From the NCBI RefSeq assembly GCF_009914755.1, contig NC_060934.1: 64,000 nt of DNA. One strand, 5' to 3'. Positions 20,621 through 43,828 of the stretch are shown here, piece after piece (position 1 is the first letter of the stretch; every line of letters starts with the position of its first letter). The stretch is from the human T2T-CHM13v2.0 reference genome, Homo sapiens. The position numbers and the translations under genes are program-made. The notes beneath the pieces were generated by a model. The model ran no database searches. It had not been told where the DNA came from and saw nothing but the letters and a program-made list of their open reading frames with translations.

Positions 20621-22678
20621 CCTGCGTTCTTCACTCCTCTCCAGTCCAGCTCAGTTAGCCTCTCACCACCGATCTCTGCCTATCACACAATTTAAAAATT
20701 ACAGGAAGATGGTGGGGGGCACAGGACTTATGGAGAAATGTCTACACCCAGCTCAGCTTCCCTTAGAGCCGCCTGGAGTTGGTGCTACCGGGGGGCAGCT
20801 GGCTCAGTGGGGCATGGGCTCTGACAAACCCTGAGTCTCTGCGAGGCTCCTTAAGGGCTCCACAGCCGCTGCTGGGCCCTTCTATTCCCTGTCAGAAGTT
20901 GGCCACCTCATGGGGATGTATTACTGTCTATCTGCTCACAAGGCACCACTGGCAGTCACTAGGAACACAGTGACTCTTTCTAGAATGAATGAGCACAACC
21001 TCCACCCGTGGCTGGATACAGGATATTCCCCCACCCCAGAAGTCCCCCTCGGGCCCTTACCAGTCAACACTACCCAAAGGGTAACCCTGCTTCTGTGTCC
21101 AGCAAGGCAGTATCTGCCTGAGTTTGAATAGTGTACGAGGAGTCACACCTGGTATACCCTGGGGTGTGAACTGGTCCTCCAGGAAGCAGACACCCAGAAA
21201 GATAGGACTGCAAATGTTTCTAAAGGGAAACACTGGAAATGAGAGAGAGAGGAGGGAGCACGGGGCATGGAGCATCAAATATGGTGGAGACTTTTCCAAG
21301 ATATCATGGCCCAGGAGACTCTTCAAATTTCAAAATTATCCTGTAAGGTAAAAAGATTTCGGTTTATTTCCAGGTGACCTTCTTTTGCCCAATATACATT
21401 TTGTCTTCTATGAAATATCTGTGCCCCTGCTGAATACTTCTGTGTGTGGCCATATCTGTGTCTGTATGTCATGGAGAATAATTATCCACAGATCACAGAT
21501 ACAAATCTCAGAGTTTAACTGTGTATGCATTTTTAGGATCTCTTCATCTCGTAAGGATCTGAATTCTAATCTTGGAGACAGGGGCTTTCCCTTATCTTTT
21601 GAAAGAGAAACTGGAAATCCCAGAGCCTGAGCTGCTACACCCTAAGGTTTATTAAATGAACTTCAATGAACACCTTTTGCTGATCTTCTGAGTGGAAATA
21701 TTTTCATTTAACCAGCGGGAGGGGTGAGGCTCTACCATCTACCAGCTATTTTGCAAGATGCCTTCCTTATGAGCTTGGTCTCCCTGTCCTCACCATGACC
21801 TCATAATCGCATCATTCCCAGCTCATTTCTGAGAAAGCTGGGGCTCTGAGCTCTACTGAGAGTTGGTGTCTGGGCTTAGGCAGCAAAGACACAGGGAAGG
21901 GGAAGCATTTTGCCTGCCAAGGTTGGGAGATGCAAAGCTGAGAGTTGTAGGTGGGAAGGAGAGGGTGCAGGAGATCAGAGTAGGTCACAGCAGCTCAGGA
22001 TTGGCCTTGAGTTTCCAGCCAGAGTTGGCCTCATTCTGAAGGCCAAGGCCGCAGCTCCACTGAACCAGACCCATCCTCATTGTTAGTCTCCTTAGGCCGT
22101 GAAAACTCAGGGAGACAGGTTCCCCTGACAGAACCAAGTTAAAATTTTCAGACCTCTAGGCATTCATTCACCCCGATCTAGAGCCTTCATGCACCCAGGG
22201 AAAGAATCATCTTCCTACCAATAATGGACTAAAGGCTGTAGGGCAACAAGGAAGTGCTGGGGTGGTAATTTCCTGTGCACAATGTGGTATCTGAGCTCCC
22301 ATGGCAGCTCTGTGTGGCCCTCACCGCAGCCTCCATGCTCCTGCTCACGCTGCTTGCCTGGCTAGGAGCAGCCTTCCAGCTCTACCTGAGTTCAACAACC
22401 CCCCATGTCACACCTCCCTGCTTCAGCTTTCTCTTCCACGGCCTCCTGTTTACTCCCAGGAGATTCTGTCTCCTCCTTCTGCACCCTGTGTCCCTTCACT
22501 TGTGTTTCCATTGGGCTGGTCAGAAGCTCTGTGCCCTTCAGTGTGGGTCTCTCTGCTGCAGCACACAGGATGCCCTGCCAGTCAGGGATGGGTCTCATCC
22601 CTCACAGAGCTGGCCATATGGCCCAGGTTCCACACAAGCCTGCAAAGCTTGTATTTCTAGCTTCTATAAACAATCTCT

Positions 22679-22992
22679 GGCTGGGCACAGTGGCTCACAC
22701 TTGTAATCTTGGCACTCTGGGAGGCCAAAGTGGGCAGATGGCATGGCTCCAGGAGCTTGAGGCCAGCCTGAGCAACATGGTGAAACATGGTCTCTACAAA
22801 AAGTAAAACAAAAAAACATTAGCCAAGCATGGTGTTGCACACCTGTAGTCCCAGCCACTCTGGAGGCTGAGGTGGAAGGATCACCTGGGCCCTAGAGGCG
22901 GAGGTTGCAGTGAGCCAGGAGTGCACCCCTGCACCCCAGCCTGGGTGACAGAGTGAGACTCTGTCCCCCACCAAAATAAAATAAAAAAAAAA
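22679..22992 (+). mobile_element. AluJ
   Basis: Full-length Alu just distal to the pseudogene terminal exon. Confidence 0.9.
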
Positions 22993-23188
22993 ACTCTTTC
23001 CTTATCTACAGAAGATACCTGCTGCCAAAGTCATAATGAGAAAATAATGCAACTGATTTGTAGTCTCAGAAACTTGAGCAAAGTGACCACATCCTCAGCC
23101 AGTGCTACCCTCATATTGCAAAGCCTTGCAGTACAATCTGTGACATTTCTATTCATTCAAAAAAGGAAAGATGAGTCCATTTTGCAAC

Positions 23189-25181
23189 TTAGTTCATACT
23201 GTTCAGATAAACATACCAAGTGGTACATGTGGAGTTGGTGGTTGAGGTCTTACAGGCCACAATGGGTAGAGGAGCTGGTTGAGGTCCCAGAGGAGTTGGT
23301 TCAGATAGCAGAGGCCAGGCAAGTGGAGGAGGTGGCAGATGTACTAGAAGAGACCCTGGTGGAGGAGGTGGCTGAAGTCCCAGGGACCACAAGTGGAGAT
23401 TATTGAAGTAGCTGAGGAGATTCATGTGAAGGTGGTAGTTGAGGGGCCAGAGGCCACCCAGGTAGAAGGGGTGGCTGAGGATCCAGAGATTACTAAGTGG
23501 AGATGTAGTCGGAGGTCCCAGAGGCCTCACAGAACAAAAAGGTGAATGATGTCCCAGAGGAAAGGCAGCTATAAAAGATGGATGAGGTCCCGGAGGACAG
23601 AAACATGCAGAAGATGGATAAGGTCCGGGAGGACAAGGAGCTGCAGGAGGTGGATGAGGTCCCAGAGGACCAACAGCTGCAGGAGGTGGATGAGATCCCA
23701 GAGGACCTACTGGTGCAGGAGATGGATGAGGTCCGAGAGGACCACCAGCTGCAGGAGGTGGATGAGGTCCCAGAAGACCTACAGTTGCAGAAGGTGGATA
23801 AGGCCCCAGAGGACCAACAGCTTCAGGAGGTGGATGAGGTCCCAGAAGACCTACAGTTGCAGGAGGTGGATGAGGTCCCAGAGAACCTACCACTGCAGGA
23901 AGTGGATGAGGTCCCAGAGGACCAACAGATGCAGGAGGTGGATGAGGTCCCAGAGGACTGACAGCTGCAGGTAGATGAGGTCCGGGAGGACTGACAGCTA
24001 CAGGAGGTGGATGAGGTCCTGGAGAACTGACAGCTGCAGGTGGATGATGTCCGGGAGGACTGACAGCTGCAGGAGGTGGATGAGGTCCCAGAGGACTGAC
24101 AGCTGCAGGTCGATGAGGTCCCGGAGGACTGACAGCTGCAGGAGGTGGATGAGGTCCTGGAGGACTGACAGCTGCAGGTAGATGAGGTCCGGGAGGACTG
24201 CCAGCTGCAGGAGGTGGATGAGGTCCCAGAGGACTGACAGCTGCAGGTGGATGAGGTCCCGGAGGACTGACAGCTGCAGGAGGTGGATGAGGTCCCAGAG
24301 GACTGACAGCTGCAGGTGGATGAGGTCCCGGAGGACTGACAGCTGTAGGAGGTGGATGAGGTCCCGGAGGACTGACAGCTGCAGGTAGATGAGGTCCGGG
24401 AGGACTGCCAGTTGCAGGAGGTGGATGAGGTCCCGGAGGACTGACAGCTGCAGGTAGATGAGGTCCGGGAGGACTGATAGCTACAGGAGGTGGATGAGGT
24501 CCTGGAGGTCTGACAGCTGCAGGTGGATGATGTCCGGGAGGACTGACAGCTGCAGGAGGTGGATGAGGTCCTGGAGGACTGACAGCTGCAGGAGGTGGAT
24601 GAGGTCCTGGAGGACTGACAGCGGCAGGTAGATGAGGTCCGGGAGAACTGCCAGCTGCAGGAGGTGGATGAGGTCCCAGAGGACTGACAGCTGCAGGTGG
24701 ATGAGGTCTCAGAGGACTGACAGCTGCAGGAGGTGGATGAGGTCCCGGAGGACTGACAGCTGCAGGTAGATGAGATCCGGGAGGACTGCCAGTTGCAGGA
24801 GGTGGATGAGGTCCCAGAGGACTGACAGCTGCAGGTTGATGAGGTCTGAGAGGACTGACAGCTGCAGGTGGATGAGGTCTGAGAGGACTGACAGCTGCAG
24901 GAGCTGGATGAGGCCCTGGAGAACAATCGAGTGGAGGAGGTGGTTAAGTTTTCAGGGGACTCTCCAGTGCAAGAGGTGCTTGAGTTCCCAGAGGACACTC
25001 CAGTGGAGGAGTTTGTTGAGGTCCCAGAAAACCTTCAGATGGAGGGAGTGTTTGAGTTCCCAGACAACACCCGGTAGAGGAGGCGGCTGGCAGCCCATCA
25101 ATGGTCCTGAAGGGCCAGCCATGAGATCGGGCAAGTAGGGCCATTCTGAGAAAGGATGAGCTTCCCTGCAGCCACATTGAC
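23189..25181 (-). pseudogene. Terminal proline-rich exon (MIA3 VNMAPKG / NPIP VRMAA exon homolog) containing the VNTR
   Basis: cttgtag|GTCAATGTGGCT: VNVAAG/HPFSEWPYLPDLMAGPSGPLMGCQPPPL vs MIA3 [35 protein letters not shown] and NPIP [35 protein letters not shown]. Confidence 0.85.
23230..25070. repeat. Minisatellite/VNTR, 36- and 33-bp units (GAGGTGGATGAGGTCCCAGAGGACTGACAGCTGCAG)
   Basis: Directly visible tandem array; homogeneous core about 23580-24900 with diverged flanks. Confidence 0.97.
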
Positions 25182-27132
25182 CTACAAGTCAGGAGGAGAA
25201 AATGTTTTGAAATATATGAATATGATGGACAAAAACACCAAAACCAACACAAGCTGCACCTTATGCCTCGGGTGATAGTCCCTTGCACCTTTCCCTCCTC
25301 CAGGTTTCAAAATGGCAGCATGAATGCCATAAAGTCTCCCTTCAACTGAGTCCTGCCAACAGCAGGGGAGTGAAGAAAAGTCGTGGGGACAAACTGCTAT
25401 CCCCACACGCCACTCTGTCTGCAAATGTACGCAGGCTGGGGGCCTGTCCCTGGGAAGACAGAGTCATAACCCAGTAATAAAGAAGCATGTTTCTGACACA
25501 GGGGTGTCTATGTCTATCCTAATTCCTCCCTCACCATCATCACCGGAGCATGTTCCTTGCATCAGATAAACAGAGAGAAAGAGAAGCATGAAAAGCCCAT
25601 TGTCCACACATGAGTCACAGCTACTCTTAAGAGAATGGCCTCCAGGCTTTTCATGTGCTGTCTCTGATTCTCAGAAATCTACAAGGTCAGTGTGACCACC
25701 CTGCTCCAAATCTAAGAAAATAGAGGCTCCAGAGGAAGGAGAAATTTCACCTAGCATCACACAGCTTGCAAGAAGCAGAGTGGAAGTCGATTCCAGCTCT
25801 GCCTGCAAGACCCTCTCGTCCCCCTTCTGCTTCCCTTCTTGACAAACGGTCTTCTCTACTTTGGAAGCGCCATCCATGGGCACAAAGAGCTCTGGGGAGA
25901 TGGGGATTCCTGAAGAGCTGCAGGGGAACTGGGAGAGGGTTTTCTGACGGAATAATCTTACATAGAGATATCAGTTTGGCATGGTTATCACATTTCTTTA
26001 ACTTCTAGGTAATACCAAATTTTAAGTGCACTATGACATAAAGAATAATTTTGTCCATGGAAAAATGAGGTGGGAATTCTCAACAACAGAAGTTTTAAAA
26101 ATATGTTTGATTTCAAGTGTACAAGTCCCATCGTGTGTGATCAGAGGATTCAGCAGCTGTCGAAGACACAGAGGCCACACGAGAACCAGCTTAATTGAGC
26201 ATCATTTAAGGCCTTCATTGAGAATTGTCCCTGTAGGTAATGAGTGACGTTCACTCTCCACTACCTCACAGCCAGGGCACATTTTCTATTAAAATATGGA
26301 ACCTCTGACACTTAGAATATTAGATCAAGGGCAACACTGGGTGAGGGTGGGGGCGTTTTTGCTCAACACAGTTAACAACAGAGATGGGACTGTGATGAAT
26401 TATGGAATTGACTTTGCCAAAGAACATTCAAAATTGCACAAAGCACATATTAATGTTGGATCAATGAGTTTTCACTTCTGGGATTACGGCGGATATTCTG
26501 AAGGTTAATCACTTACCTTATAGCAGAAAAGAAAATCACAGCAAAAAAAAAAAGGAAACCCCACATATTTTGGAAAGGGGATCCCACACCATCTTGAGTA
26601 AAAGGGATCAGTCAGGGTCTACTGGGCCATAAGACCTACCTCAGTGGAGTTCAATGGCATCCTCTCATGTTATTTCTGGAAACAGAACAGTGACAGCCCT
26701 GCAGCCCTTGGCCCTTAAGCATTTATGGCTTCTGGAGGTGCCACCAAAGATGACCAGCTGGAAATGGAGAAGCCTGAAAGCTCATGGGGAAGATTTTGCT
26801 TTCAAAAAAGTCCAGTTAGAAAAGGCACCACAGAACCCAGAGAGCAGAGGACAGGCCAGGAGAGGGCGCTGTAGGAAAAGACAAAACTGTCCTGAACTAG
26901 GCAGAGGGAAAATGACTCCAGCATTTACCTTTGTCTTCTCTGTTTTCTGGCTATGTCTTCTGATTCTTTAAGAAAAGAAGAAATATTGATCCATGAAGAC
27001 ATAGCCAGAAAATTTCTGCTCTCATCAGCACTTATGGCTCCCATTCTAAAATGTTACTAGTGTTACTTTTCTCAAATAATAATAAAAAAAATAAAGCCTT
27101 CCCACTGACTCAAGGTTGGAAGGGGAGCTGAC

Positions 27133-27267
27133 CCATTTGCCTTCTAGGCTCATCCCCTCAGTTAAAAGTAACCAAGACATCAGGGTGGAATGATGTCCAC
27201 AGTCAGTGGAGGGGCCTGTGCTCCGCTATTCACAGGGGACCAGCCAAGAGTCATTCAGCTGTGGCAC
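27133..27267 (-). pseudogene. Exon: MIA3 PRD exon homolog (frameshifted)
   Basis: NDS/GWSPVNSGAQAPPLTVD/VTFN*GDEPRRQM(G) vs [21 protein letters not shown]...ATLNRRDMPRSEF(G); donor gtcagc. Confidence 0.82.
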
Positions 27268-27442
27268 GTGAGAAAAACGGTCCTGCCACCCAGCGGGATA
27301 ACTGTTCTCTTTAGTAAGTGCTTGGAACTGTTTCCAGGAAACATAACAATAACCCAACCCAAGCCCTCACCCCAGAAAGGAGAAGCAGGGGTGTGGATTG
27401 TGGAGCAGAAGTTAAGCGGGTGCCTTCCCAGAGAGCTCCTAC

Positions 27443-27537
27443 CTCTCCAGAAAGGGTTCTCTAGCCCTAGCTGTCCCTGGGCTGCCTCCTGACTCATGTG
27501 TCTCTCCAGCACTCCCTGCTTTTCCATCATTTCCTGT
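27443..27537 (-). pseudogene. Exon: MIA3 LLELTQK...NPPRR exon homolog (95 nt, phase 2-1)
   Basis: QEMMEKQGVLERHMSQEAAQGQLGLENPFWR(G) vs [33 protein letters not shown](G); ttcaag|...|gtagga. Confidence 0.75.
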
Positions 27538-27658
27538 CTTGAAGACAGTGAAAGAGTTGACTTGTAGAAGAATTAAAACACTGTTTTCTTTACTAGACAG
27601 TCAAAGCTTCATCTTAAAACAAAAACATCCTTAAAATTTGTCCATCACAATCACCTAC

Positions 27659-27720
27659 CTGTGCTGCTTGCAGGCAGCCTTCCTCTCTGCCATCTCCCTC
27701 TGCAAGGCTTGAGCACAGAG
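27659..27720 (-). pseudogene. Exon: MIA3 LKARAAER exon homolog (62 nt, phase 0-2)
   Basis: LCAQALQREMAERKAACKQH vs [22 protein letters not shown]; cccacag|...|gtaggt. Confidence 0.82.
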
Positions 27721-27788
27721 CTGTGGGGAGAAAAATACATCCATGTCCCGACTTGGCCGAAAAGCAAGGGAAAAATGAACAAACTTAC

Positions 27789-27826
27789 CCAGTTGTTGAG
27801 GCCTTTCTTGCAGCAGAAGGGGCGAT
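27789..27826 (-). pseudogene. Micro-exon: NPIP exon 7 / MIA3 IATHEKKAHENW homolog (38 nt, +2 frameshift)
   Basis: tttttcag|ATCGCCCCTTCTGCTGCAAGAAAGGCCTCAACAACTGG|gtaagt; reads IAPSA/KKGLNNW. Confidence 0.88.
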
Positions 27827-27936
27827 CTGAAAAAGCCAACACATGAGAAAATGTATGTTGACAGATTCTAGGGGCAGTGGCATCATCTTGATGAGCGTTT
27901 AAGGATCCTGCAACTGCAGGAAGGAAGGCTCCTTAC

Positions 27937-27997
27937 CTCTCATCTGTAGGAGTCCTCTACCCACTGCTGCAGCTCTTGTCTGTCTTGAATCGTTTTT
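27937..27997 (-). pseudogene. Exon: NPIP exon 6 / MIA3 RRIEEM exon homolog (61 nt, premature TGA)
   Basis: KTIQDRQELQQWVEDSYR*E vs NPIP [20 protein letters not shown]; TGA at 27942-27940; catag|...|gtaagg. Confidence 0.88.
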
Positions 27998-28687
27998 CTA
28001 TGGTTTAGAATCACTTTCATCAGACACAGCATCATCTTTAGTATGATTTTAAATAATCTGCCATGTTCCTGTTGTCCTCACAATTGTACCCTTACACAAT
28101 CTATCTATACATAGAAAATGTATTTCACATGGCTATAAAAGTACAGTATGATCAAAACTGTTGCTGTAATGCTTCCTCCTCTTTTACTTAATGCCTGCTG
28201 GGTTCTGAGTTGACAATTTCCTTACCCATTTTCAGTATGTCCCTAATTCATGCTTCATTGGGCATCTTTTATCATAAAGCTCTATTCTCCTGGAATTAAT
28301 ATCCTTGCCATATTTCACAGGGCAGAAACAGCTGAGCTTATAAATAGGCACAGTCCTTTTGAAGGATGGGTTGATCCTACAACAACACACTTTCCTAAGG
28401 ATGATGACAACTCGCATCACCCCTAGAACGGCTGGTATGAACCGAGTTTCCACACAGTCTGGCTGGCATTGCAGTCAGGAGATGTTTGGCTACTTCACAT
28501 GTTTTGAACACTAGTAAATCTTAAGGTACTTGTGTTCTCTGGTGTGAATTGTCTCTCTCTCTAGGTATCGCTTCTGACCATTTGTTTCCATTTCTGTGTT
28601 AACTGGGTCTAAACATTGTACAAAGATTTAAAACAAAACACTCCACCAGCGCTTCCCCAAGAGGCTGGTGTCGGTTTCCGAACCCAC

Positions 28688-28789
28688 TTGCAGATGGGTA
28701 TTTTTTCTAGAGCCAATTTCATGGTTTCTTCCACCTCTGACAGCCGCCTCCCCTTTTCTTCTCGTTCACGTTCTTTCATTCTCAGCTTC
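28688..28789 (-). pseudogene. Exon: NPIP exon 5 / MIA3 KLSQEEYER exon homolog (102 nt, open)
   Basis: KLRMKEREREEKGRRLSEVEETMKLALEKIPIC vs NPIP [33 protein letters not shown] and MIA3 [33 protein letters not shown] (12/33); ctcag|...|gtgggt. Confidence 0.9.
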
Positions 28790-29150
28790 CTGAGTCGAGA
28801 AGGGAGAGAAATGCATGCACGTGATCCACTGGCCTGTGTGGGATTCCTTGCGGCATCTGAAGGCCGTGATTCAAAGGTCCCCTGACAACCTTCCCATAAA
28901 TGAACCAACTGATCCTCACAACTGGGGGGAGAATTAACACCTTCCATGGGACAAAGAAAAAGCACATTCTGGCCTGCTGGCAAGTCACCTGTCGTTTCCA
29001 GCTCATCTTCATCGCTCTGTATTCCTACTCTTTAGTAAATATGAACTATTAAAAGCTTCTATGAGATGCGCTATGTGTGCTTCTGGGGTCAGTCTTTTGC
29101 CTGACATAGCGAAAGCTCATTTTAGTTCAGTGTAGAAAACCAGACCTCAC

Positions 29151-29370
29151 CAGCTCATCACAACTAAACCCATAAGGACGGAGCAGAGGATCACTCCTCG
29201 TCTGACTCCTCCCACAGGGAAACCTGATTCTCCATCAGAGGCTGATGCCAGAACCCAGACAATCAGCCTCAGAGAGATCCTTCCAGGACATGCTGTCATT
29301 AGCCCTGCGGTTCACTACTGCACATGTCCATGATTCAGGACTGGAACTCTTCTCATCGACTTTAAAGATC
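29151..29370 (-). ncRNA. Candidate 220-nt non-coding exon resembling subtelomeric-duplicon lncRNA exons
   Basis: ccttttctctcaaccag|GATCTTTAAAGTCGATG...GAGCTG|gtgagg. Similarity to LINC01002/FAM157-type transcripts is from memory. Confidence 0.5.
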
Positions 29371-29660
29371 CTGGTTGAGAGAAAAGGCCAATCTGAGTGC
29401 TGGGTGCATCTACTGAATTGGAAATGATCCAATGGCTCTTTAGTCAGGGTGTTATGTCCTGAAAATAGGTGACAACTGCAAACCATCCTCTGGTGTCCAG
29501 AGACTTTAACAAGGTTTGTTTCACACAGACTGAGGGCAGAAAAAAGGAAATGGCCTAAAAAGGTGGGTTTGCTGTGTTGCCTCACACTACTTGATTCATG
29601 GTTCTGATTCTAAAAATCTCACTTGATACTTGATTTCATATGAAAGACGTGTAAAATGCC

Positions 29661-30900
29661 TGGGTAGAGGCGGCGGCGGCGGCGGCGGCGGCGGGCTCGG
29701 AGGCAGCGGTTGGGCTCGCGGCGAGCGGACGGGGTCGAGTCAGTGCCGTTTGCGCCAGTTGGAATCGAAGCCTCTTAAAATGGCAGATGATTTGGACTTC
29801 GAGACAGGAGATGCAGGGGCCTCAGCCACCTTCCCAATGCAGTGCTCAGCATTACGTAAGAATGGCTTTGTGGTGCTCAAAGGCTGGCCATGTAAGATCG
29901 TGGAGATGTCTGCTTCGAAGACTGGCAAGCACGGCCACGCCAAGGTCCATCTGGTTGGTATTGACATCTTTACTGGGAAGAAATATGAAGATATCTGCCC
30001 GTCAACTCATAATATGGATGTCCCCAACATCAAAAGGAATGACTTCCAGCTGATTGGCATCCAGGATGGGTACCTATCACTGCTCCAGGACAGCGGGGAG
30101 GTACCAGAGGACCTTCGTCTCCCTGAGGGAGACCTTGGCAAGGAGATTGAGCAGAAGTACGACTGTGGAGAAGAGATCCTGATCACGGTGCTGTCTGCCA
30201 TGACAGAGGAGGCAGCTGTTGCAATCAAGGCCATGGCAAAATAACTGGCTCCCAAGGTGGCAGTGGTGGCAGCAGTGATCCTCCGAACCTGCAGAGGCCC
30301 CCTCCCCCAGCCTGGCCTGGCTCTGGCCTGGTCCTAGGTTGGACTCCTCCTACACAATTTATTTGACGTTTTATTTTGGTTTTCCCCACCCCCTCAATCT
30401 GTCAGGGAGCCCCTGCCCTTCACCTAGCTCCCTTGGCCAGGAGCGAGCGAAGCCATGGCCTTGGTGAAGCTGCCCTCCTCTTCTCCCCTCACACTACAGC
30501 CCTGGTGGGGGAGAAGGGGGTGGGTGCTGCTTGTGGTTTAGTCTTTTTTTTTTTTTTAAATTCAATCTGGAATCAGAAAGCGGTGGATTCTGGCAAATGG
30601 TCCTTGTGCCCTCCCCACTCATCCTTGGTCTGGTCCCCTGTTGCCCATAGCCCTTTACCCTGAGCACCACCCAACAGACTGGGGACCAGCCCCCTCGCCT
30701 GCCTGTGTCTCTCCCCAAACCCCTTTAGATGGGGAGGGAAGAAGAGGAGAGGGGAGGGGACCTGCCCCCTCCTCAGGCATCTGGGAAGGGCCTGCCCCCA
30801 TGGGCTTTACCCTTCCCTGCGGGCTCTCTCCCCGACACATTTGTTAAAATCAAACCTGAATAAAACTACAAGTTTAATATGAAAAAAAAAAAAAAAGAAA
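29661..30900 (+). mobile_element. EIF5A processed-mRNA retrocopy (5'UTR, CDS, 3'UTR, polyA)
   Basis: Perfect 19-bp TSD GAAAGACGTGTAAAATGCC at 29642-29660 and 30901-30919; AATAAA at 30859-30864; poly(A) about 30882-30900; no introns. Confidence 0.97.
29780..30244 (+). CDS. EIF5AL1: eIF5A-1-like protein, intact intronless retrogene (154 aa)
   Basis: ATG at 29780 gives [15 protein letters not shown]...AIKAMAK*. Hypusine motif [10 protein letters not shown] (Lys50) is intact. W36, A45 and P109 differ from recalled EIF5A (R/T/R), as recalled for EIF5AL1. Confidence 0.93.
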
Positions 30901-32102
30901 GAAAGACGTGTAAAATGCCAAGAACTCTAGGAAACAGGGACAAAAACACTTCAAAGAGAAAGTTCATGCACTTGTTTCTGACCACCCAGGGCACCCTTCA
31001 GCACACGCTGTCTGGAGTGGCCTGAAGCAAGGAGTGTCTTGTGAGGTGCAGAGGATGCAATGGGAGCAGGGTCCTGTCCCCACCCTAAAGGAGTTCACAG
31101 TTTAACGCAAATGAGAAGCCAGTGAGGACATCACTACTCCTGCTGTGAACTTGGGAACTAGAAACACAAAACCTGAGTCTGGAGGGAAGCTAAGGAAGCA
31201 TTCTGCTCTGGAGTAGACATGAGTGCGTGTGAAGCTTCTGATCTCCCATGAGAGCAATGGGGACATGGGGCAGAATCTAAAACCCATGACTGAAAGCACC
31301 AAATTGCTAAAATGGCAATAAAGAGACATGAGGCCAAGATGGAGAAGAAGGAACCCAGGACGAGGGTCAGCCTCACATTTGGGGCTCATTTCCCTCAGTT
31401 TCCTCACTGAATTTCAGAAGGGACTAACTGAGATGCAAAGAAGCAGAGCAGCTTTTGCACCATGTGGAGGACTAGATGGAAAACAAGTAGACTGAGGGTC
31501 TGCTAGTGAAGGTGACCCCTACTGAAGTCCACTGGCTTTGGTTGGGACCCAGAAGAGTCACACGCCAGGAATAGAGGTGGACAGGAAACACCCTGACTTT
31601 TGTAGGGACTGAACCTCACTGATAACCTCAATTGCGGATGGTATGGAGGGTGTCTAGGTGTGCTAGGACCCCTGCCCATTCCCCAGAAATAGACTCCCAT
31701 CTTTTCTACAGCAAGATAACGTGCTAGTAGGCCTCAATTCATTGCTAAATATTTTTAACGAGTGTCTTACATTTAGCCAAAAAGACTAGTCATGTGGCAG
31801 GAAAAATACAATGTCATATGACCAAAAGCTAAAAGACTGTGAAAATGAATCCAGAGGTGACCCAAGCATTGAATTTAACAATGCCAGTACCTGGACCTCC
31901 GCTTGCCCCTAAAACATTACAATCAAGAATGTAGGAAGGGAAAGGAAACACGAAGATTAATCAAGCAGGAAGGACAAGCTCAGTTTTGCACCCACTGAAT
32001 TTGCCACAAATATTGTGGAAAATATTCTCGGGGACATTGCAGTTGTCTACTTTGGTTGGCACATGGTTCATACAACAGTGTTTGTGTCAGTGAACATCTT
32101 AC

Positions 32103-32241
32103 TCTTCCTCGGCAGTCTTTCTTTGCCCAGAGATTTCGCAATGACTGTTGACCTTCATCATCACCTTTTGGACTTTGGCTTGCACTTTAGCTTCTGTAGA
32201 TCTCCATGATGTAAAGAAGTATTTTAGGTCCATTTTAATTC
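32103..32241 (-). pseudogene. Exon: NPIP exon 4 / MIA3 DQVKKL exon homolog (139 nt, phase 1-2, open)
   Basis: (G)IKMDLKYFFTSWRSTEAKVQAKVQKVMMKVNSHCEISGQRKTAEE vs NPIP [49 protein letters not shown]; ttgcag|...|gtaaga. Confidence 0.9.
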
Positions 32242-32405
32242 CTGCAAAGGATAAAATCCTTCTATTTGTGTGCATATAAGTGGACCTGAGCCCTTGGTTA
32301 GGGTGTAGAGAGGAGAAGGGGAGAAACCTGAGGGCCAGAAGCTGTTCTTTCCCTTAAAAGGGCAAACTCATTTCCACACTATGGGGACTCTGACAGATAG
32401 CATAC

Positions 32406-32504
32406 CTTCCTGTCTATGGCTATTGGACCTGCAGGCTTTCCCCTGTAAATCCGTGTTCTGTCATTGACATTTTGTGACTGTAAGACAGACTTGAGATAAG
32501 ACAT
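32406..32504 (-). pseudogene. Exon: NPIP exon 3 homolog (99 nt, 1-nt deletion)
   Basis: MSYLKSVLQSQNVND/TDLQGKACRSNSHRQE(G) vs NPIP [34 protein letters not shown]; ttctag|...|gtatgc. Confidence 0.88.
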
Positions 32505-32649
32505 CTAGAAAACAATAATTGAACAATGATGTGAATATATTTCACACAACTGAACTGTACATTTCAACAAGGTTAAGATGGTAATTATCACGTTATACAT
32601 TTTTTACCGCAGGTTAAAATGTTTCACAGGTTGAAAGGAAAGCAACTAC

Positions 32650-32794
32650 CTTCAGTTCTCTGAGTTCAAGAATTTGTAACATTTCACCCCCTGCTCCTTC
32701 CTGATCTTCTGTGGAGCATCTTTTTTCCATCCATGCTCTACTCAGAGCCCACTTTCCCTTCCCTGACACCAGCTTCACTGAGGCTGGTTGGAAC
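32650..32794 (-). pseudogene. Exon: MIA3 VQIALNEAK exon homolog (homology 32794-32691), extended to a donor at 32649
   Basis: VPTSLSEAGVREGKVGSE* then frameshift to DAPQKIRKEQ, vs [20 protein letters not shown]...NARLKKKKEQ; tgttag acceptor. Confidence 0.75.
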
Positions 32795-32943
32795 CTAACA
32801 CAAAACATTCTCAGTAATGACTGAATTCCCACAAAGAATTCCATATAGACTGCATATGAGTTGAATCTTCTAAGACATGAAATATTTGTTCTCTTCTTGG
32901 CTAATATGCAATGCAAATCCTGTTGCAGATGTACGTCATATAC

Positions 32944-33015
32944 CTCTGAAATTCCTGATGTATTCAATGAAATAACATCTTTAAAGTTCTGTGTAGAATG
33001 TTTTTTTTCTGATTT
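32944..33015 (-). pseudogene. Exon: MIA3 coiled-coil exon homolog (72 nt)
   Basis: KSEKKHSTQNFKDVISLNTSGISE vs MIA3 [24 protein letters not shown] (13/24); ag|...|gtatat. Confidence 0.88.
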
Positions 33016-33938
33016 CTTCACATACGATAGAAAAAAAAACCCAAAAAAACATGTACTAGGATTTCAATAGAAGCAATGGGTGATCTAAAAAGATGAAAGA
33101 GCAACCGCATGCGCCCTACAGCTACCGCTAGATTTTATGGGGAAAGCAGCTGGCCCAGTTTGCAGCTAGGAGAAATGTCAAACACATGAAGAAATGAGAA
33201 GCAAAGAAAAACCATGAGGCATGAACATTTCATGGCAATCACGATGTCCTGGTTTGTGAGATAATGGGATAGAGGAGTAGAAAACAAGGAGAAAGATGAG
33301 AAGGTACAAAGTGGTTCAAGTCAAACAGCTCAACTGAACTTTTCTTAATGGAATATTTAAAAAGTGGTACATTAAAAAACTTCCCCCAGTTCACATCAAA
33401 AATTCTCTCTTCAGGACTAAGTTGGGTAGAGACTGTTCAATGTGCCTAGATATCTTCAGAACTTATATATTTTCTGTTTTCTACGTATGTTGAAGGGCAG
33501 TGCCAAATGATGTGTAATTATCTAGGTTGTAAAAATAAAACATACTCCCCCTTCCCTTGAGGATAAAAAAGCATTGTGGTATTAGCACTTTTTTCTTGGA
33601 TCATTGTTCAGAAGATGTTTAAGCCCCTAGACACCCAAACTTTTACTGTCATGAACAGCAAGAGAAAACGTAGAGCTCGATTTACTCAATGGACAAAAAT
33701 GCTCAAAAGCCAAATTATGGCACAATTTAGCAGCCACATTCTTAACCAGTACAGACTTTTGACATACCGATCCCTCTCCAGTGGCAACCGAGAATGTGTA
33801 CTTTGAATGATGCCATTTGAAATGACCACTCATTACTCTGCCCAGACACACTTTTCATTGATTCTTCGGAGGGCAGTTCCAAGAGATTCTCTGGGGCTTT
33901 CTCTGCATCATGAGACACAGTGCAGTTCTGCCCTTGAC

Positions 33939-34026
33939 CTTCCTGCAGTTTGTCGCCTCTTCCTCATGATCTCAGAGGAACTTTGTCTCAGGCCAGCTGT
34001 TTGTTCCTTGGGCTCTTTCATTTCCC
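33939..34026 (-). pseudogene. Candidate degenerate exon (MIA3 IKESKK...DEAIKYK homolog)
   Basis: tttttag|GGGAAATG...GGAAG|gt. Reads MKEPKEQ..., then EEATNCRK after a frameshift. Position is colinear but similarity is weak. Confidence 0.4.
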
Positions 34027-34639
34027 CTAAAAATCATTTGCTGTCCTGCCTTCATCTCCATCTCCCGTTTCCCTGAGAAGAGGGTGCTCATTAAGCATCA
34101 GTCATCTGGCCCTTCTTGCAGTCTCATTTTTTGGCTGGCTCCCATGTTTATGCATGTTAATAAGGTTCTATGTTTTCCTTCTCCTGTTAAGCTGTCTGTT
34201 GTTAGTACATTGCTGCAGTGAACTTTTAGAGAGGAGAGTGGAAGCTTTCCTTCCACCCATACAATAGAACTATAAAGCAGAAAAGTTTAGAAAGAATTTC
34301 TTATTTAAGTGCTGAAACTTTATACTTCAGTTTTTGATAAAGAGCAGAGGGCTTAAAAAAAACGTATTTTTGACCAAAAGCTCTGTTGACATTCTATTAA
34401 ACAAACACAAACCTATTTAATTTTTTAATTAAATAGGTTGAATTAAAAATTTAAAAAAATTTTAAAAATCTGCCATAATTTAAATGGCAGATTTTTCATA
34501 ATTCTTATGCTAATAAATCATTTCCTGATTTTTTAAATAAAACCCAATATTCATAATGAAGTCCAGAACCACAAATTGTTTTAAATAATTTCTTATTTGT
34601 GATTACAAGTCCACCTCTAGGGAAAGTTAGTGTACTCAC

Positions 34640-34771
34640 ACCAAGGCTAGTTTTGCAGAAGAAAATGGCAAGTTTGTAAATTCCCAGGGACACAACAATA
34701 ATGATAAGCATCCAAGGAATTCCAAAAAAGTCAGGCCCGGGATGAAAATGCCCAGGCAGAAAATTGACGAT
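34640..34771 (-). pseudogene. Exon: TANGO1 TM-hairpin exon / NPIP exon 2 homolog (132 nt)
   Basis: IVNFLPGHFHPGPDFFGIPWMLIIIVVSLGIYKLAIFFCKTSLG vs MIA3 [44 protein letters not shown] (about 20/44, ungapped). Donor gtgagt intact; acceptor reads CAT. Confidence 0.9.
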
Positions 34772-35455
34772 ATGGAATACTACTAGTTGACATAATGAGA
34801 AGGCTCAATGACATTTACAATATTTCAGTTACAAAGAATCATCCTTAGAAACCCTTAACCTCCTCCAAGAAGTAACCACACCCCTCAGATATCCCCGGGC
34901 AATTCCACTGCTTCAGGAAAGATTGGAAATTTCCAGTCTCATGTTTCTTGCATGGATGGTAGTGTATTTAGGCGTGCAAATGTGGGCTGTCTTTTTTCTT
35001 GGTCTGAAGCAGGCATGTCCAGTCTTTTGGCTTCCCTGGGCTATATTAGAAGGAGAATTGTCTTGTGCCACACATAAAATACACTAACAATAACTGATGA
35101 GAAAAAAAAAATCACAAAAAAATCTCAGAATGTTTGAAGAAAGTTTAGAAATTTGTGATGGGCTGCATTCAGAAAAGCTGTCCTGGGTTGAATACACTCT
35201 GCCACCCATGGGTTGGACAAACTAGTTATAAAGTAATTATCTTTAAAGTCATTTACTTATTTTTTAGATTGAAATATAATATTGAGTGTATTTGTCATGT
35301 ATCACATGATAAAGGAATCTCTCTGGATCCCACTTCTCTCTTGAATTACATGAATCTTTGCAATTTAAAGAATGTAAGTAAAAAAATACAATTAAGAGAT
35401 GACTTCATTCAGAAATAAGTATCAAATTTTAGTGCTTAAAAATAACCAAGGTGGA

Positions 35456-42010: not shown

Positions 42011-43828
42011 TCATCATCACCCCGCCCTAGTGGGGAGACTGAAGTGGCCAGGGATTTGCCGAAGGTGCCAGTTGGTTCCGAGTTCACTGCTGATTACATC
42101 TGACCAAGCTCCTTTTCTCAAGTTCACCTTGTTTAATCTTTCCAGTGACAGTTTTCCGCAGCTCCGGGACAAACTCCATCTGGTTAAGTATAAGGGAAAT
42201 CCACAGTGACTTACCAATTCCCTACCCTCCTCCTCTGCCCCTCCACAGTCTCCCACACAGGCTGACACCATATGGTCGCCTTAATGGAATCCACCAAGTG
42301 TGTCAGGTTCTCCCCTTGACCCTTTGAAGGTGGATGTAGCCGTGTGATGTGACTCAGGAGCTGTGAGTGGAAGTGAAGCGTGTCACTTCAAGACAGAAGA
42401 GTTGGGAGCCCCTGAGACTGGCCACCCTCTCCTCCATCTCTTAGAGAAGCTGACAGGTGATGAGGGGATGTGAAGCACAAGGCCCAGCAGAGCCATGGTG
42501 GACGTGCCGCATGAGCAGGATAAGAACCTTCAGTGTTGTAAATTTCCATTGTCTGGGGCTGTCCACTGAACCTACAGTGATATCTGGCCCATCGTAGCAG
42601 GCATGCACCATCTATTTCATGCTCTGTGAAGCAGGCTAGCCTACCCTCAGAACATGAACTTGTCAGACACACATAGGTTTCAGTTTCAGCCCTGCCTCTT
42701 AATGACTGCAACCTCGGGCATTTGACTTTGAGTCTCCGAGCCTCAGTTTTGTTTTTGTAAAATGGTTTGCTATGCTATCTCAGGTGGAAGAGAGGATTTA
42801 ATGAAATAAAAATCCATGTAAAGCATTGAGCCTAGGGGCTGGCACACACAGTGAGTACTCAATCAAGGTTAGCCATGTAGCTTCATAATGTGTATTGACT
42901 GTAAATACTCAGACACTGCAGCAAAGTATTACAAAGAAGGAAGTGTTAACTTTTTGGCATATGTATCTCTTTGCACTTTATTTTCAAAGGGGTAGGATAA
43001 TACCACGTATACTTTTTCATAGTACGCTTTTTTCTCTTAATATGTGTTGAGATATATGTTAAATATATAAAAAACTGAATCATTATTTTAAATTGCAGGG
43101 TTATATTCAATTTTATGAAAACCTTATTTCTCTATTGTTTGACTTTTTGTAGGTTGCACAAGGCATTGAATTAAAATAAACATATCAGAATGCATTGCAT
43201 TTATAAAGATAAATATCATTCTATTAATTTTTGTTTGTTATATGTATGTATATATATTTTGAGTTGCAAGACAGAACATATTTCTTCCTATGAATCATGT
43301 TAGAAAAAGTTTGGAAGCTGCTGATTTGGATTTTTTTTTTAATTTTTACAGGATTATAAATAACCTTTTTAAAAATATCCTTGGGCACTTGACTGATTTT
43401 TGTCTTTAGGTTAACATGCCAGCAATGATTCCTTTTGGGTTTCTGACACAAGATAGCAATTTCCATCCAAATAAATCAACTATGCCATCCCATCCCTAAA
43501 CCAAATTCCTTCTTCTGCAGAAGAAAAAGCCAGTACTGTGACTGCCTAAGCTTTCCCCTGCACAGCCACCCTATGAGACATGGGGCAGGAGCACTGGGAG
43601 CTATTCAGGAGCACCAGACCCCTTCCATCTGCCCTCACTCACCTTCCTTGGGGACTTGCATGAGACTGTCACTGACTTTACATGCTTCTGCAGCTCCTTG
43701 GTCAGCTGGTCCTTGTCACGGGACAGAAACTGTGGGGTCAGGACAATAAACACCTTCACGACCTGCAGAACGAGGGCAGAGGCTTATGGTGAGTGTCAAT
43801 GTATTACATATCTTAAAAAGTCAATATT

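What the first reader, a model, noticed from the sequence alone, without database searches (positions are those of the whole stretch)
23192..24943. Start-less 584-codon stop-free proline-rich frame: tandem amplification of a TANGO1-like PPP motif
Seen: after one TAA (24946-24944), the minus frame shared by track ORFs 24944..25288 and 23189..23893 has no stop until 23191. It reads (PLGPHPPPAAVS / PPGPHLPAAVS)n. The track shows only 234 aa because no start codon occurs upstream. Known: TANGO1/cTAGE5 PRDs bind COPII Sec23 through PPP motifs, and MIA3 has [11 protein letters not shown] at this position. Inference: the VNTR grew from that motif in its ancestral frame, so an ancestor or an intact ortholog could encode a highly multivalent Sec23-binding tail.
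Basis: partly seen in the sequence, partly recalled or inferred. Interest (0 to 1): 0.8.

Follow-up and report, generated by a model that had tools for sequence, protein, structure and literature searches.

The report
Relic proline repeat of NPIP paralog
The long stop-free proline-rich frame is the decayed last coding exon of an old chromosome-10 copy of the NPIP ("morpheus") gene family, which descends from the tail half of the secretion gene TANGO1/MIA3; the repeat grew by copying one short TANGO1 proline motif many times, and in humans it is now cut off from any start codon.

Summary
Window 23192-24943 (minus strand) is 584 codons without a stop, bounded by TAA 24944-46 and TAA 23189-91, and built from 36- and 33-bp units reading PGPHPPPAAVS.

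- The locus (LOC729815) is an unrecognised, intron-containing paralog of the 3' half of MIA3/TANGO1. Eight colinear DNA segments match MIA3; none match in the control orientation.
- It is also a member of Pfam NPIP (PF06409).
- Both flanks of the array map onto the same 74 bp of the MIA3 proline-rich exon, chr1:221897809-882, which ends in FGPRPLPP. The chrX paralog and MIA3 carry that unit once.
- The open frame is the ancestral MIA3/NPIP frame.

In humans it is a relic.
- A TAA shared with the chr10 duplicate and two window-specific 1-bp deletions cut it off. A titi-monkey model has Q at the TAA position.
- No ATG reaches it in the annotated transcripts.
- dN/dS against the duplicate is 0.89.
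- Neutral simulation keeps this frame open in 28.6% of trials.

Sec23 binding was not tested. The wider point is that the NPIP exon-8 coding repeat is an amplified TANGO1 PPP motif.

The parts
23192..24943 (-). 584-codon stop-free proline-rich frame (P frame), the ancestral MIA3/NPIP coding frame of the repeat
24944..24946 (-). TAA that cuts the P frame off from the exon start; shared with the chr10 duplicate; Q in the titi-monkey model
23521..25063 (-). Tandem array of 44 units of 36 or 33 bp (12 or 11 aa). Edge units are older (LGTQTLPPSEGF, LGPQQTPPLECP at the 5' end; LGPHPPPAAVGP type at the 3' end)
23986..24919 (-). Most homogeneous core: mostly alternating 36/33-bp units (69-bp higher-order repeat, 23 aa)
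23192..23520 (-). Decayed repeat units, then read-through past the former MIA3 donor (window CTTG|GTATGT, donor GT at 23216-15) into ex-intron sequence up to TAA 23189-91
25072..25181 (-). Start of the exon homologous to NPIP exon 8 and the MIA3 PRD exon (acceptor AG 25183-82, first base 25181), with two window-specific 1-bp deletions at 25161|25160 and 25073|25072
23500..24915 (-). Last exon of lncRNA NR_136624.1. Its acceptor lies inside the array. Spliced from 27720-27659 it gives an ATG ORF of 375 aa (ATG at 27693, end 23823) that reads the repeat in the Ser/Thr/Cys-rich frame, not the P frame
   Evidence: hub table
27658..27798 (-). NPIP-family exon (Pfam PF06409 positions 161-207, 78.5 bits)
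28687..28794 (-). Coiled-coil exon (LRKLRMKEREREEKGRRLSEVEETMKLALEKIPICK), colinear with a MIA3 exon at chr1:221892458-565
32090..32272 (-). NPIP-family exon (PF06409 positions 69-127, 75.3 bits), antisense inside the annotated EIF5AL1 exon
34610..34771 (-). Membrane-segment exon (PF06409 positions 1-53, 77.5 bits), homologous to the TANGO1 exon chr1:221879297-449 (47% identity over 45 aa, E 1e-12)

Best explanation
The frame is the fossil of a protein-coding minisatellite.

An ancient genomic (intron-containing) duplicate of the 3' half of MIA3/TANGO1 founded the NPIP family. It kept the membrane-segment exon, coiled-coil exons and the penultimate proline-rich exon. In that exon, the roughly 36-bp piece encoding the last PPP motif (FGPRPLPP in MIA3, LGTRPLPP in the unamplified chrX paralog) was copied in tandem and in frame by slippage or unequal exchange. 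The old splice donor fell out of use, and the exon now reads through into former intron.

The chr16 LCR16a genes still use this array as the NPIP exon-8 coding VNTR. The chr10 copy in this window (LOC729815) carries its own version, PGPHPPPAAVS, 44 units. In the human lineage it was disconnected by a TAA (Q in a titi-monkey model) and later by two 1-bp deletions.

The array has since kept turning over as non-coding DNA. The frame stays open because unit lengths are multiples of three and Pro/Ala/Gly/Val codons almost never mutate to stops.

Shown: the homology, the amplified segment, frame identity, the breaks, and neutral evolution since the chr10 duplication. Inferred: the slippage mechanism, the order of events before the apes, and past translation.
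For: - NPIP membership: Pfam PF06409 hits on the window's minus strand score 77.5, 75.3 and 78.5 bits against a cut-off of 27.5. The bonobo ortholog model P0001 matches the full profile at 320 bits.
- Link to chr16 NPIP: window 25077-26397, 27659-28151 and 28141-29660 are 83-88% identical to chr16/chr18 LCR16a copies.
- Link to MIA3: sensitive blastn gives 8 colinear segments between window 35386..22987 (minus) and chr1:221878929..221898116, with E down to 1.6e-58, and 0 non-repeat hits in the opposite orientation. A tblastx chain includes introns.
- The chr1 exon is human TANGO1: 100% identity to P0006.
- The exon start aligns in all six copies. MIA3 and chrX hold a single unit, 20/27 identical by my own count on the alignment; no tool computed it.
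- The 3' flank aligns into the MIA3 intron: 159/281 identical, with chrX as a bridge.
- Frame: the chr10 duplicate reads from the acceptor into the units in one frame. The orangutan chr11-ortholog model P0002 and the titi model P0123 use the same frame.
- Decay: the TAA is shared by both chr10 copies and the two deletions are window-only. dN/dS is 0.89 in this frame, against 1.0 and 0.78 in the control frames. The duplicate has its own stops and 1-bp and 4-bp deletions. No ATG ORF in the annotated transcripts reaches the P frame.
- Openness is expected under neutrality: 28.6% of simulations.
- Literature: NPIP exon 8 is a protein-encoding VNTR with a 23-aa unit in monkeys (PMC7419210, passages).
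Against: - Protein-level comparison of the repeat exons is not significant: chr16 exon 8 vs P0002 gives E 0.68, and the P0002 tail vs the TANGO1 PRD gives E >= 2.4. Homology of the repeat itself therefore rests on flanking DNA colinearity and position.
- The unit motif differs from the published PLPPS unit.
- P0123, P0002 and P0001 are automatic gene models, not evidence of translation. P0123 has an N-terminus that reads to me like Alu-derived sequence; no tool checked this.
- No other primate genome could be searched, so the age of the TAA, and whether the gene was already dead for other reasons, is not fixed.
- Around the array the two chr10 copies are only 78-90% identical, against 98-99.8% elsewhere. 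The dN/dS alignment therefore lies in a fast-changing zone and may not be strictly orthologous.
Confidence: 0.85

Rival explanations
1. A plain non-coding minisatellite. On this view the open frame is only a by-product of a C/T-rich unit whose length is a multiple of three, with no coding ancestry.
For: All three sense frames of the consensus array lack stops, and the neutral simulation keeps the P frame open in 28.6% of trials. Other frames are also long: 403 aa on the minus strand and 122-142 aa on the plus strand. Pfam finds nothing in any frame of the array.
Against: The array sits exactly at the NPIP exon-8 / MIA3 PRD exon, with a conserved acceptor and exon start. Both flanks map to one MIA3 coding segment. 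The frame equals the MIA3 frame. The paralogous chr16 array is a described coding VNTR.
Confidence: 0.03
2. The P frame is still translated in humans, from an unannotated upstream exon or by non-AUG initiation. This would give a PPP-rich, possibly COPII-binding, polypeptide.
For: 584 open codons with 22 non-overlapping PPP. The locus is transcribed (RefSeq NR_136624.1, hub table).
Against: The only Met codons are 507 and 583. A TAA and two frameshifts lie upstream. No ATG ORF in the three transcript models I built from the annotated exons (one is my own exon combination) enters the P frame. dN/dS is about 0.9.
Confidence: 0.04
3. If anything is translated, it is the Ser/Thr/Cys-rich frame. NR_136624.1 carries an ATG ORF of 375 aa, starting at 27693 in the native NPIP exon frame (MAERKAACKQH...) and reading the repeat as SSGTSSTSCSCQ units.
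For: (ORF from 27693 to 23823). Automatic models in Pongo abelii (P0125, flagged LOW QUALITY) and P0124 read the repeat in that frame. NPIPB genes are reported to switch frames within their VNTR (bioRxiv 10.1101/2025.02.04.636496, passages).
Against: RefSeq classes the transcript as non-coding (hub table). The frame is reached through an acceptor inside the array (24915), not the conserved one (25181). Control-frame dN/dS is 1.0. This frame has 6 stops over the ORF span. No expression or peptide data were available.
Confidence: 0.08
4. The locus is a processed cTAGE/MIA2-type retrocopy rather than a genomic MIA3 duplicate.
For: cTAGE retrogenes are common in primates (recalled, not tested).
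Against: Colinearity with MIA3 includes intron sequence on both sides of several exons. The Pfam NPIP scan of the genome hit chr1 (MIA3) and listed no chr14 row at E <= 10; that MIA2 lies on chr14 is recalled.
Confidence: 0.02

Closest known systems
NPIP (morpheus, LCR16a) exon-8 protein-coding VNTR, chr16/chr18
   Same: Same gene family (PF06409). Same exon, acceptor and frame. Tandem in-frame units with a 69-bp (23-aa) period, as reported for monkey NPIP (PMC7419210 passages).
   Different: Only 83-88% identical in flanking DNA, and located on chr10, outside LCR16a. The unit reads PGPHPPPAAVS rather than PLPPS/SADDN. It is cut off by a TAA and two frameshifts and annotated as lncRNA. The T2T census of 27 NPIP genes in bioRxiv 10.1101/2025.02.04.636496 (passages) does not mention chr10.
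TANGO1/MIA3 proline-rich domain (penultimate coding exon)
   Same: Positional and DNA-level homolog of the exon. The amplified unit corresponds to [11 protein letters not shown], residues 1795-1805 of a 1907-aa TANGO1 (P0011). That lies inside 1788-1847, the region PMC5461033 (passages) reports as binding Sec16 and important for Sec23 binding.
   Different: TANGO1 has the motif once and 7 PPP in all. This locus has 44 units. The donor is bypassed and the last TANGO1 exon is not used. No SH3 or luminal part is present: TANGO1 residues 1-1159 found no significant match in the window (one weak hit, residues 773-806, E 7.7, with seg filtering). No binding was tested.
cTAGE family (MIA2-derived retrogenes)
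   Same: Primate-expanded relatives of the TANGO1 family with a membrane segment, coiled coil and proline-rich tail (recalled).
   Different: Those are intronless retrocopies (recalled). This locus keeps MIA3 introns.

Membership tests
NPIP (Pfam PF06409) | Match to the family profile above the curated cut-off (27.5 bits) | tested here: met
   Window exons score 77.5, 75.3 and 78.5 bits. The bonobo ortholog model P0001 scores 320 bits over profile positions 1-207.
NPIP (Pfam PF06409) | Last exon with an in-frame tandem amino-acid repeat (23-aa unit in monkeys) | tested here: met
   Same acceptor and exon start as chr16 NPIPA. Period 69 bp. 44 in-frame units. The unit motif differs from the published PLPPS.
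NPIP (Pfam PF06409) | Part of the LCR16a core duplicon (near-identical chr16 copies) | tested here: not met
   83-88% identity to chr16/chr18 copies. In the intron tree the chr10 pair is separate from the LCR16a clade, K2P 0.165-0.174.
NPIP (Pfam PF06409) | Intact open reading frame through exon 8 | tested here: not met
   TAA at 24944-46 and two 1-bp deletions. No ATG ORF reaches the P frame.
TANGO1/MIA3 family | Homologous membrane-segment exon | tested here: met
   47% identity over 45 aa, E 1e-12, against human TANGO1 P0006. The Pfam NPIP profile hits the MIA3 exon at 47.4 bits.
TANGO1/MIA3 family | Gene-structure colinearity with MIA3, introns included | tested here: met
   8 colinear segments, and 0 in the control orientation. 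Decayed exon relics lie at 33012-32941 and 27251-27183.
TANGO1/MIA3 family | Luminal SH3 cargo-binding domain (long isoform) | tested here: not met
   TANGO1 residues 1-1159 found no significant match in the window (one weak hit, residues 773-806, E 7.7, with seg filtering). The duplicate begins near the start of the region to which isoform P0006 maps; that this corresponds to the TANGO1-short unit is my recall.
TANGO1/MIA3 family | Coiled-coil domains | tested here: inconclusive
   Colinear but weak at protein level: E 0.11 and E 0.036.
TANGO1/MIA3 family | Proline-rich domain that binds Sec23/Sec16 through PPP motifs | not testable with these tools
   22 non-overlapping PPP in the frame. Binding is known for TANGO1 only (PMC5461033 passages).
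cTAGE retrogenes | Intronless processed copy | tested here: not met
   Intron homology with MIA3.

The most novel reading that the evidence does not exclude
The whole NPIP/morpheus family is a TANGO1-short derivative, and its fast-evolving C-terminal VNTR is an amplified copy of the PPP motif from TANGO1's Sec16/Sec23-interacting region. Members with intact tails would then be ER-exit-site membrane proteins that engage the COPII inner coat or Sec16 multivalently, rather than nuclear-pore partners. Candidates are chr16 NPIPA/B, the chr11 ortholog in orangutan and the chr10 ortholog in New World monkeys. The descent itself I hold at about 0.9. The probability given here is for retained COPII/Sec16 binding in at least one living member.
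Probability: 0.2. Interest if true: 0.8.

Novelty: new member of a known kind. Interest (0 to 1): 0.6.

Why it matters
NPIP is one of the fastest-evolving human and ape gene families and the core of the chr16 segmental duplications. Its function is unknown. A 2019 review lists it as having 'no homolog' (PMC6920530, passages), and a 2025 preprint says it lacks deep homology.

I found only hints of a link to TANGO1:
- one sentence on 16-27% similarity to MIA3 in bioRxiv 10.1101/116087;
- precomputed PF06409 labels on TANGO1 proteins;
- no paper holding both NPIP and TANGO1.

The chr10 relic, with its chr11 and chrX relatives, gives intermediate forms. They tie the NPIP coding VNTR, exon by exon and in frame, to one TANGO1 motif that lies in the Sec16/Sec23-binding region. 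That turns 'what does NPIP do' into a concrete test: ER exit sites and COPII. The locus itself is a transcribed pseudogene and is probably of no direct functional weight.

Tried and rejected
- No paper holds 'LOC729815'.
- Pfam found nothing credible in five frames of the array and its flanks, nor in the chr16 exon-8 translation, P0123 or P0125.
- Protein-level comparison of the repeat exons was not significant. I therefore rest the repeat's homology on DNA colinearity, not on peptide likeness.
- A first dN/dS run used a poorly aligned array stretch and a duplicated control frame. It was redone on 23860-23192 with three distinct frames.
- Window 37479-36576 matches MIA3 intron 2 (chr1:221856061-221857694, 60-62%). 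It is 21 kb out of register with the rest, so I did not count it as part of the duplicate; it may be an old shared repeat.
- The plus-strand acidic frames (EVDEVPEDQQLQ...) were considered as an alternative coding strand and dropped. Transcription, splice sites and all homologs are on the minus strand.
- I ran no structure prediction or complex prediction. The tail is low-complexity, and a human Sec23 chain could not be supplied unaltered.
- No other primate genome was available.

Full report
**Observation.**
- The minus strand of the window holds one stop-free frame of 584 codons, 23192-24943. It is closed by TAA 23189-91 and preceded by TAA 24944-46. The same frame is open for a further 120 codons upstream.
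- Tandem Repeats Finder reports an array at 23540-24913 with period 69 (36+33), 19.7 copies, 86% matches. Weaker 36-bp units run up to 25083.
- Read in this frame there are 44 units of 12 or 11 residues from 25063 to 23521, followed by about 110 codons of decayed units. No unit has a length that shifts the frame.
- The frame is 35% proline and has 22 non-overlapping PPP. Its only Met codons are 507 and 583.

**Is it more than chance?**
- Yes against composition alone: 2000 shuffles gave a longest open frame of at most 419 codons, mean 180.
- No against a neutral tandem array. Only 85 of 5256 possible single substitutions make a stop in this frame, against 238/5193 and 179/5130 in the other two sense frames.
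- Random substitution of the consensus array at the observed density (119 of 1398 bases) leaves this frame fully open in 28.6% of 5000 trials, against 1.0% and 0.4%.
- Openness by itself therefore says nothing about selection.

**What the locus is.**
- DNA search of the window's own genome found these relatives:
  - an inverted duplicate at chr10:81.11-81.13 Mb, 98-99.8% identical away from the array;
  - an older paralog at chr11:3.38 Mb, 82-87% identical;
  - a still older paralog at chrX:50.37 Mb, 79% identical.
- Window 25116-26397 also matches 26 copies on chr16 and one on chr18 at 83-84%. This fits the published LCR16a/NPIP census of 26 chr16 copies plus one on chr18.
- A genome scan with Pfam NPIP (PF06409) hit the window's minus strand at 34771-34610, 32272-32090 and 27798-27658, all far above the cut-off.
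- The bonobo ortholog model P0001 matches the whole profile at 320 bits.
- LOC729815 is therefore a chr10 member of the NPIP family. Its last exon starts at the same acceptor as NPIP exon 8.
- The literature describes that exon as a protein-encoding VNTR, with a 23-residue unit in monkeys (PMC7419210, passages). It is variable and in frame in humans (bioRxiv 10.1101/2025.02.04.636496, passages). Neither paper, nor bioRxiv 10.1101/116087, contains 'chr10' or 'chromosome 10'.

**The TANGO1 link.**
- The same Pfam scan hit chr1:221879297-449. This is a spliced exon that is 100% identical to human TANGO1 isoform P0006. It is 47% identical over 45 residues to the window's exon, E 1e-12.
- tblastx, and then a sensitive blastn, gave 8 colinear segments between window 35386..22987 (minus) and chr1:221878929..221898116 (plus). 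These include intron sequence, with E values down to 1.6e-58. The opposite orientation gave 0 non-repeat hits.
- P0006 maps to chr1:221878216-221899357. The duplicate therefore covers about the last 20 kb of MIA3, from the membrane-segment exon to the intron after the penultimate coding exon.
- The direction MIA3 to NPIP follows from TANGO1's wide conservation (and established knowledge).

**Origin of the repeat.**
- The MIA3 exon chr1:221897739-889 reads VNMAPKG...[20 protein letters not shown].
- A six-way alignment (window, chr10 duplicate, chr11, chrX, chr16 NPIPA, MIA3) shows the acceptor and first bases conserved in all six. MIA3 and chrX carry a single unit before the old donor: FGPRPLPP and LGTRPLPP, 20 of 27 bases identical (my own count on the alignment). 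The other copies carry repeats of it.
- The upstream flank of the array aligns to MIA3 up to 221897882. The downstream flank aligns from 221897809 on into the MIA3 intron. So 74 bp of MIA3 coding sequence are represented on both sides, which is the mark of tandem amplification.
- The old donor survives as CTTG|GTATGT at 23220-23211, but the frame reads through it to the TAA.
- In a 1907-residue TANGO1 the amplified motif is residues 1795-1805. That is inside 1788-1847, reported to bind Sec16 and to matter for Sec23 binding (PMC5461033, passages).

**Frame and decay.**
- The chr10 duplicate reads from the acceptor into the units in one frame. So does the orangutan model of the chr11 paralog, P0002.
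- The window copy lacks one base at 25161|25160 and one at 25073|25072. Downstream of the second gap the finding's frame is the ancestral one.
- The TAA is present in both chr10 copies. A titi-monkey model (P0123) that reads the orthologous array in this frame has Q there.
- Over 23860-23192, dN/dS between the chr10 copies is 0.89 (20 synonymous and 46 non-synonymous differences), against 1.0 and 0.78 in the control frames. The duplicate has its own stops and 1-bp and 4-bp deletions.
- The window has 44 units with a 36/33 alternation. By my count on the translation, the duplicate has about 23 units, mostly 12-residue. Identity between the two copies falls to 78-90% around the array. The array has therefore kept changing after the TAA.
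- In three transcript models I built from the annotated exons (one is my own exon combination), no ATG ORF enters this frame. NR_136624.1 instead holds a 375-residue ATG ORF in the Ser/Thr/Cys-rich frame. Low-quality ape models use that same frame.

**Order of events (inferred).** K2P distances in the intron upstream of the exon are as follows:

| Comparison with the window copy | K2P |
|---|---|
| MIA3 | about 0.6 |
| chrX | 0.235 |
| chr16/chr18 | 0.165-0.17 |
| chr11 | 0.135 |
| chr10 duplicate | 0.011 |

- The chrX copy has no array.
- The chr11 copy shows transitional units, PLGPQPPPPVEC then PLGPHPPPAAAC then PLGPHPPPAAVS.

**Limits.**
- Peptide-level comparison of the repeat exons is not significant.
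- The primate evidence is three automatic gene models.
- No binding, expression or population data could be examined.
- Supplements of the cited papers were not read.

**Verdict.** The locus is a decayed member of the NPIP family, and the open frame is a relic kept open by codon composition and 3n units. The wider link between the NPIP VNTR and the TANGO1 PPP motif is the part worth following.

Noticed in passing
window 29663-33570 (+) versus 32090-32272 and 32401-32457 (-): The annotated single exon of EIF5AL1 lies inside an intron of the NPIP-like locus, on the opposite strand. Its long 3' part overlaps two NPIP-family exons antisense. Homology to chr16 LCR16a stops at 29660, 3 bp before the EIF5AL1 start, as expected for a retrocopy insertion.
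   Followed up: partly
window 43640-43762 (-): This exon reads [41 protein letters not shown]. It is used as the first coding exon in the bonobo and orangutan models of this locus (P0001, P0125). Relatives lie at chr16:20555043 (83%), chr22:17.72 Mb (80%), 14 chr16 sites that appear to be LCR16a copies (70-75%) and one chr18 site (68%). It lies about 9 kb upstream of the membrane exon here, and about 9.7 kb at the one chr16 copy I compared (28643069 vs 28633347). The link may therefore predate the chr10/chr16 split. The 2025 preprint calls the NPIPB start exon an independent duplication of ACSM1 exon 12 (passage). Pfam gave no hit on the 41 residues.
   Followed up: partly
window 27693 spliced to 24915-23823 (-): NR_136624.1 contains an ATG ORF of 375 aa that starts in the native NPIP exon frame and reads the repeat as SSGTSSTSCSCQ units. 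Pongo abelii LOC100446733 (P0125, LOW QUALITY) and P0124 are modelled in the same frame.
   Followed up: partly
window 22515-25184 versus chr10:81.121-81.123 Mb: The two chr10 duplicates are 98-99.8% identical on both sides but only 78-94% identical in and next to the array. This applies also to the non-repetitive 23015-23515 stretch (90%). It points to locally raised change around the minisatellite, or to exchange with a third copy.
   Followed up: no
G000 chrX:50366632-50376621; chr7:65596495-65596895; chr16:20540302-20549238: These are further NPIP/TANGO1-like fragments outside LCR16a. The chrX copy has decayed exons and no array. There is a chr7 fragment. NPIP-like pieces also lie beside the chr16:20.555 Mb homolog of the window's upstream exon at 43640-43762.
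   Followed up: partly
window 33012-32941 and 27251-27183 (-): These are decayed remnants of TANGO1 exons that are not part of the NPIP profile: SEKKHSTQNFKDVISLNTSGISEV against TANGO1 1305-1328 (E 0.036), and a weaker match to 1666-1686. Both are colinear with MIA3.
   Followed up: no
window 37479-36576 (-): This stretch is 60-62% similar to MIA3 intron 2 (chr1:221856061-221857694), 21 kb out of register with the main colinear block. It could be an old shared repeat or a second piece of the duplication; this is unresolved.
   Followed up: no
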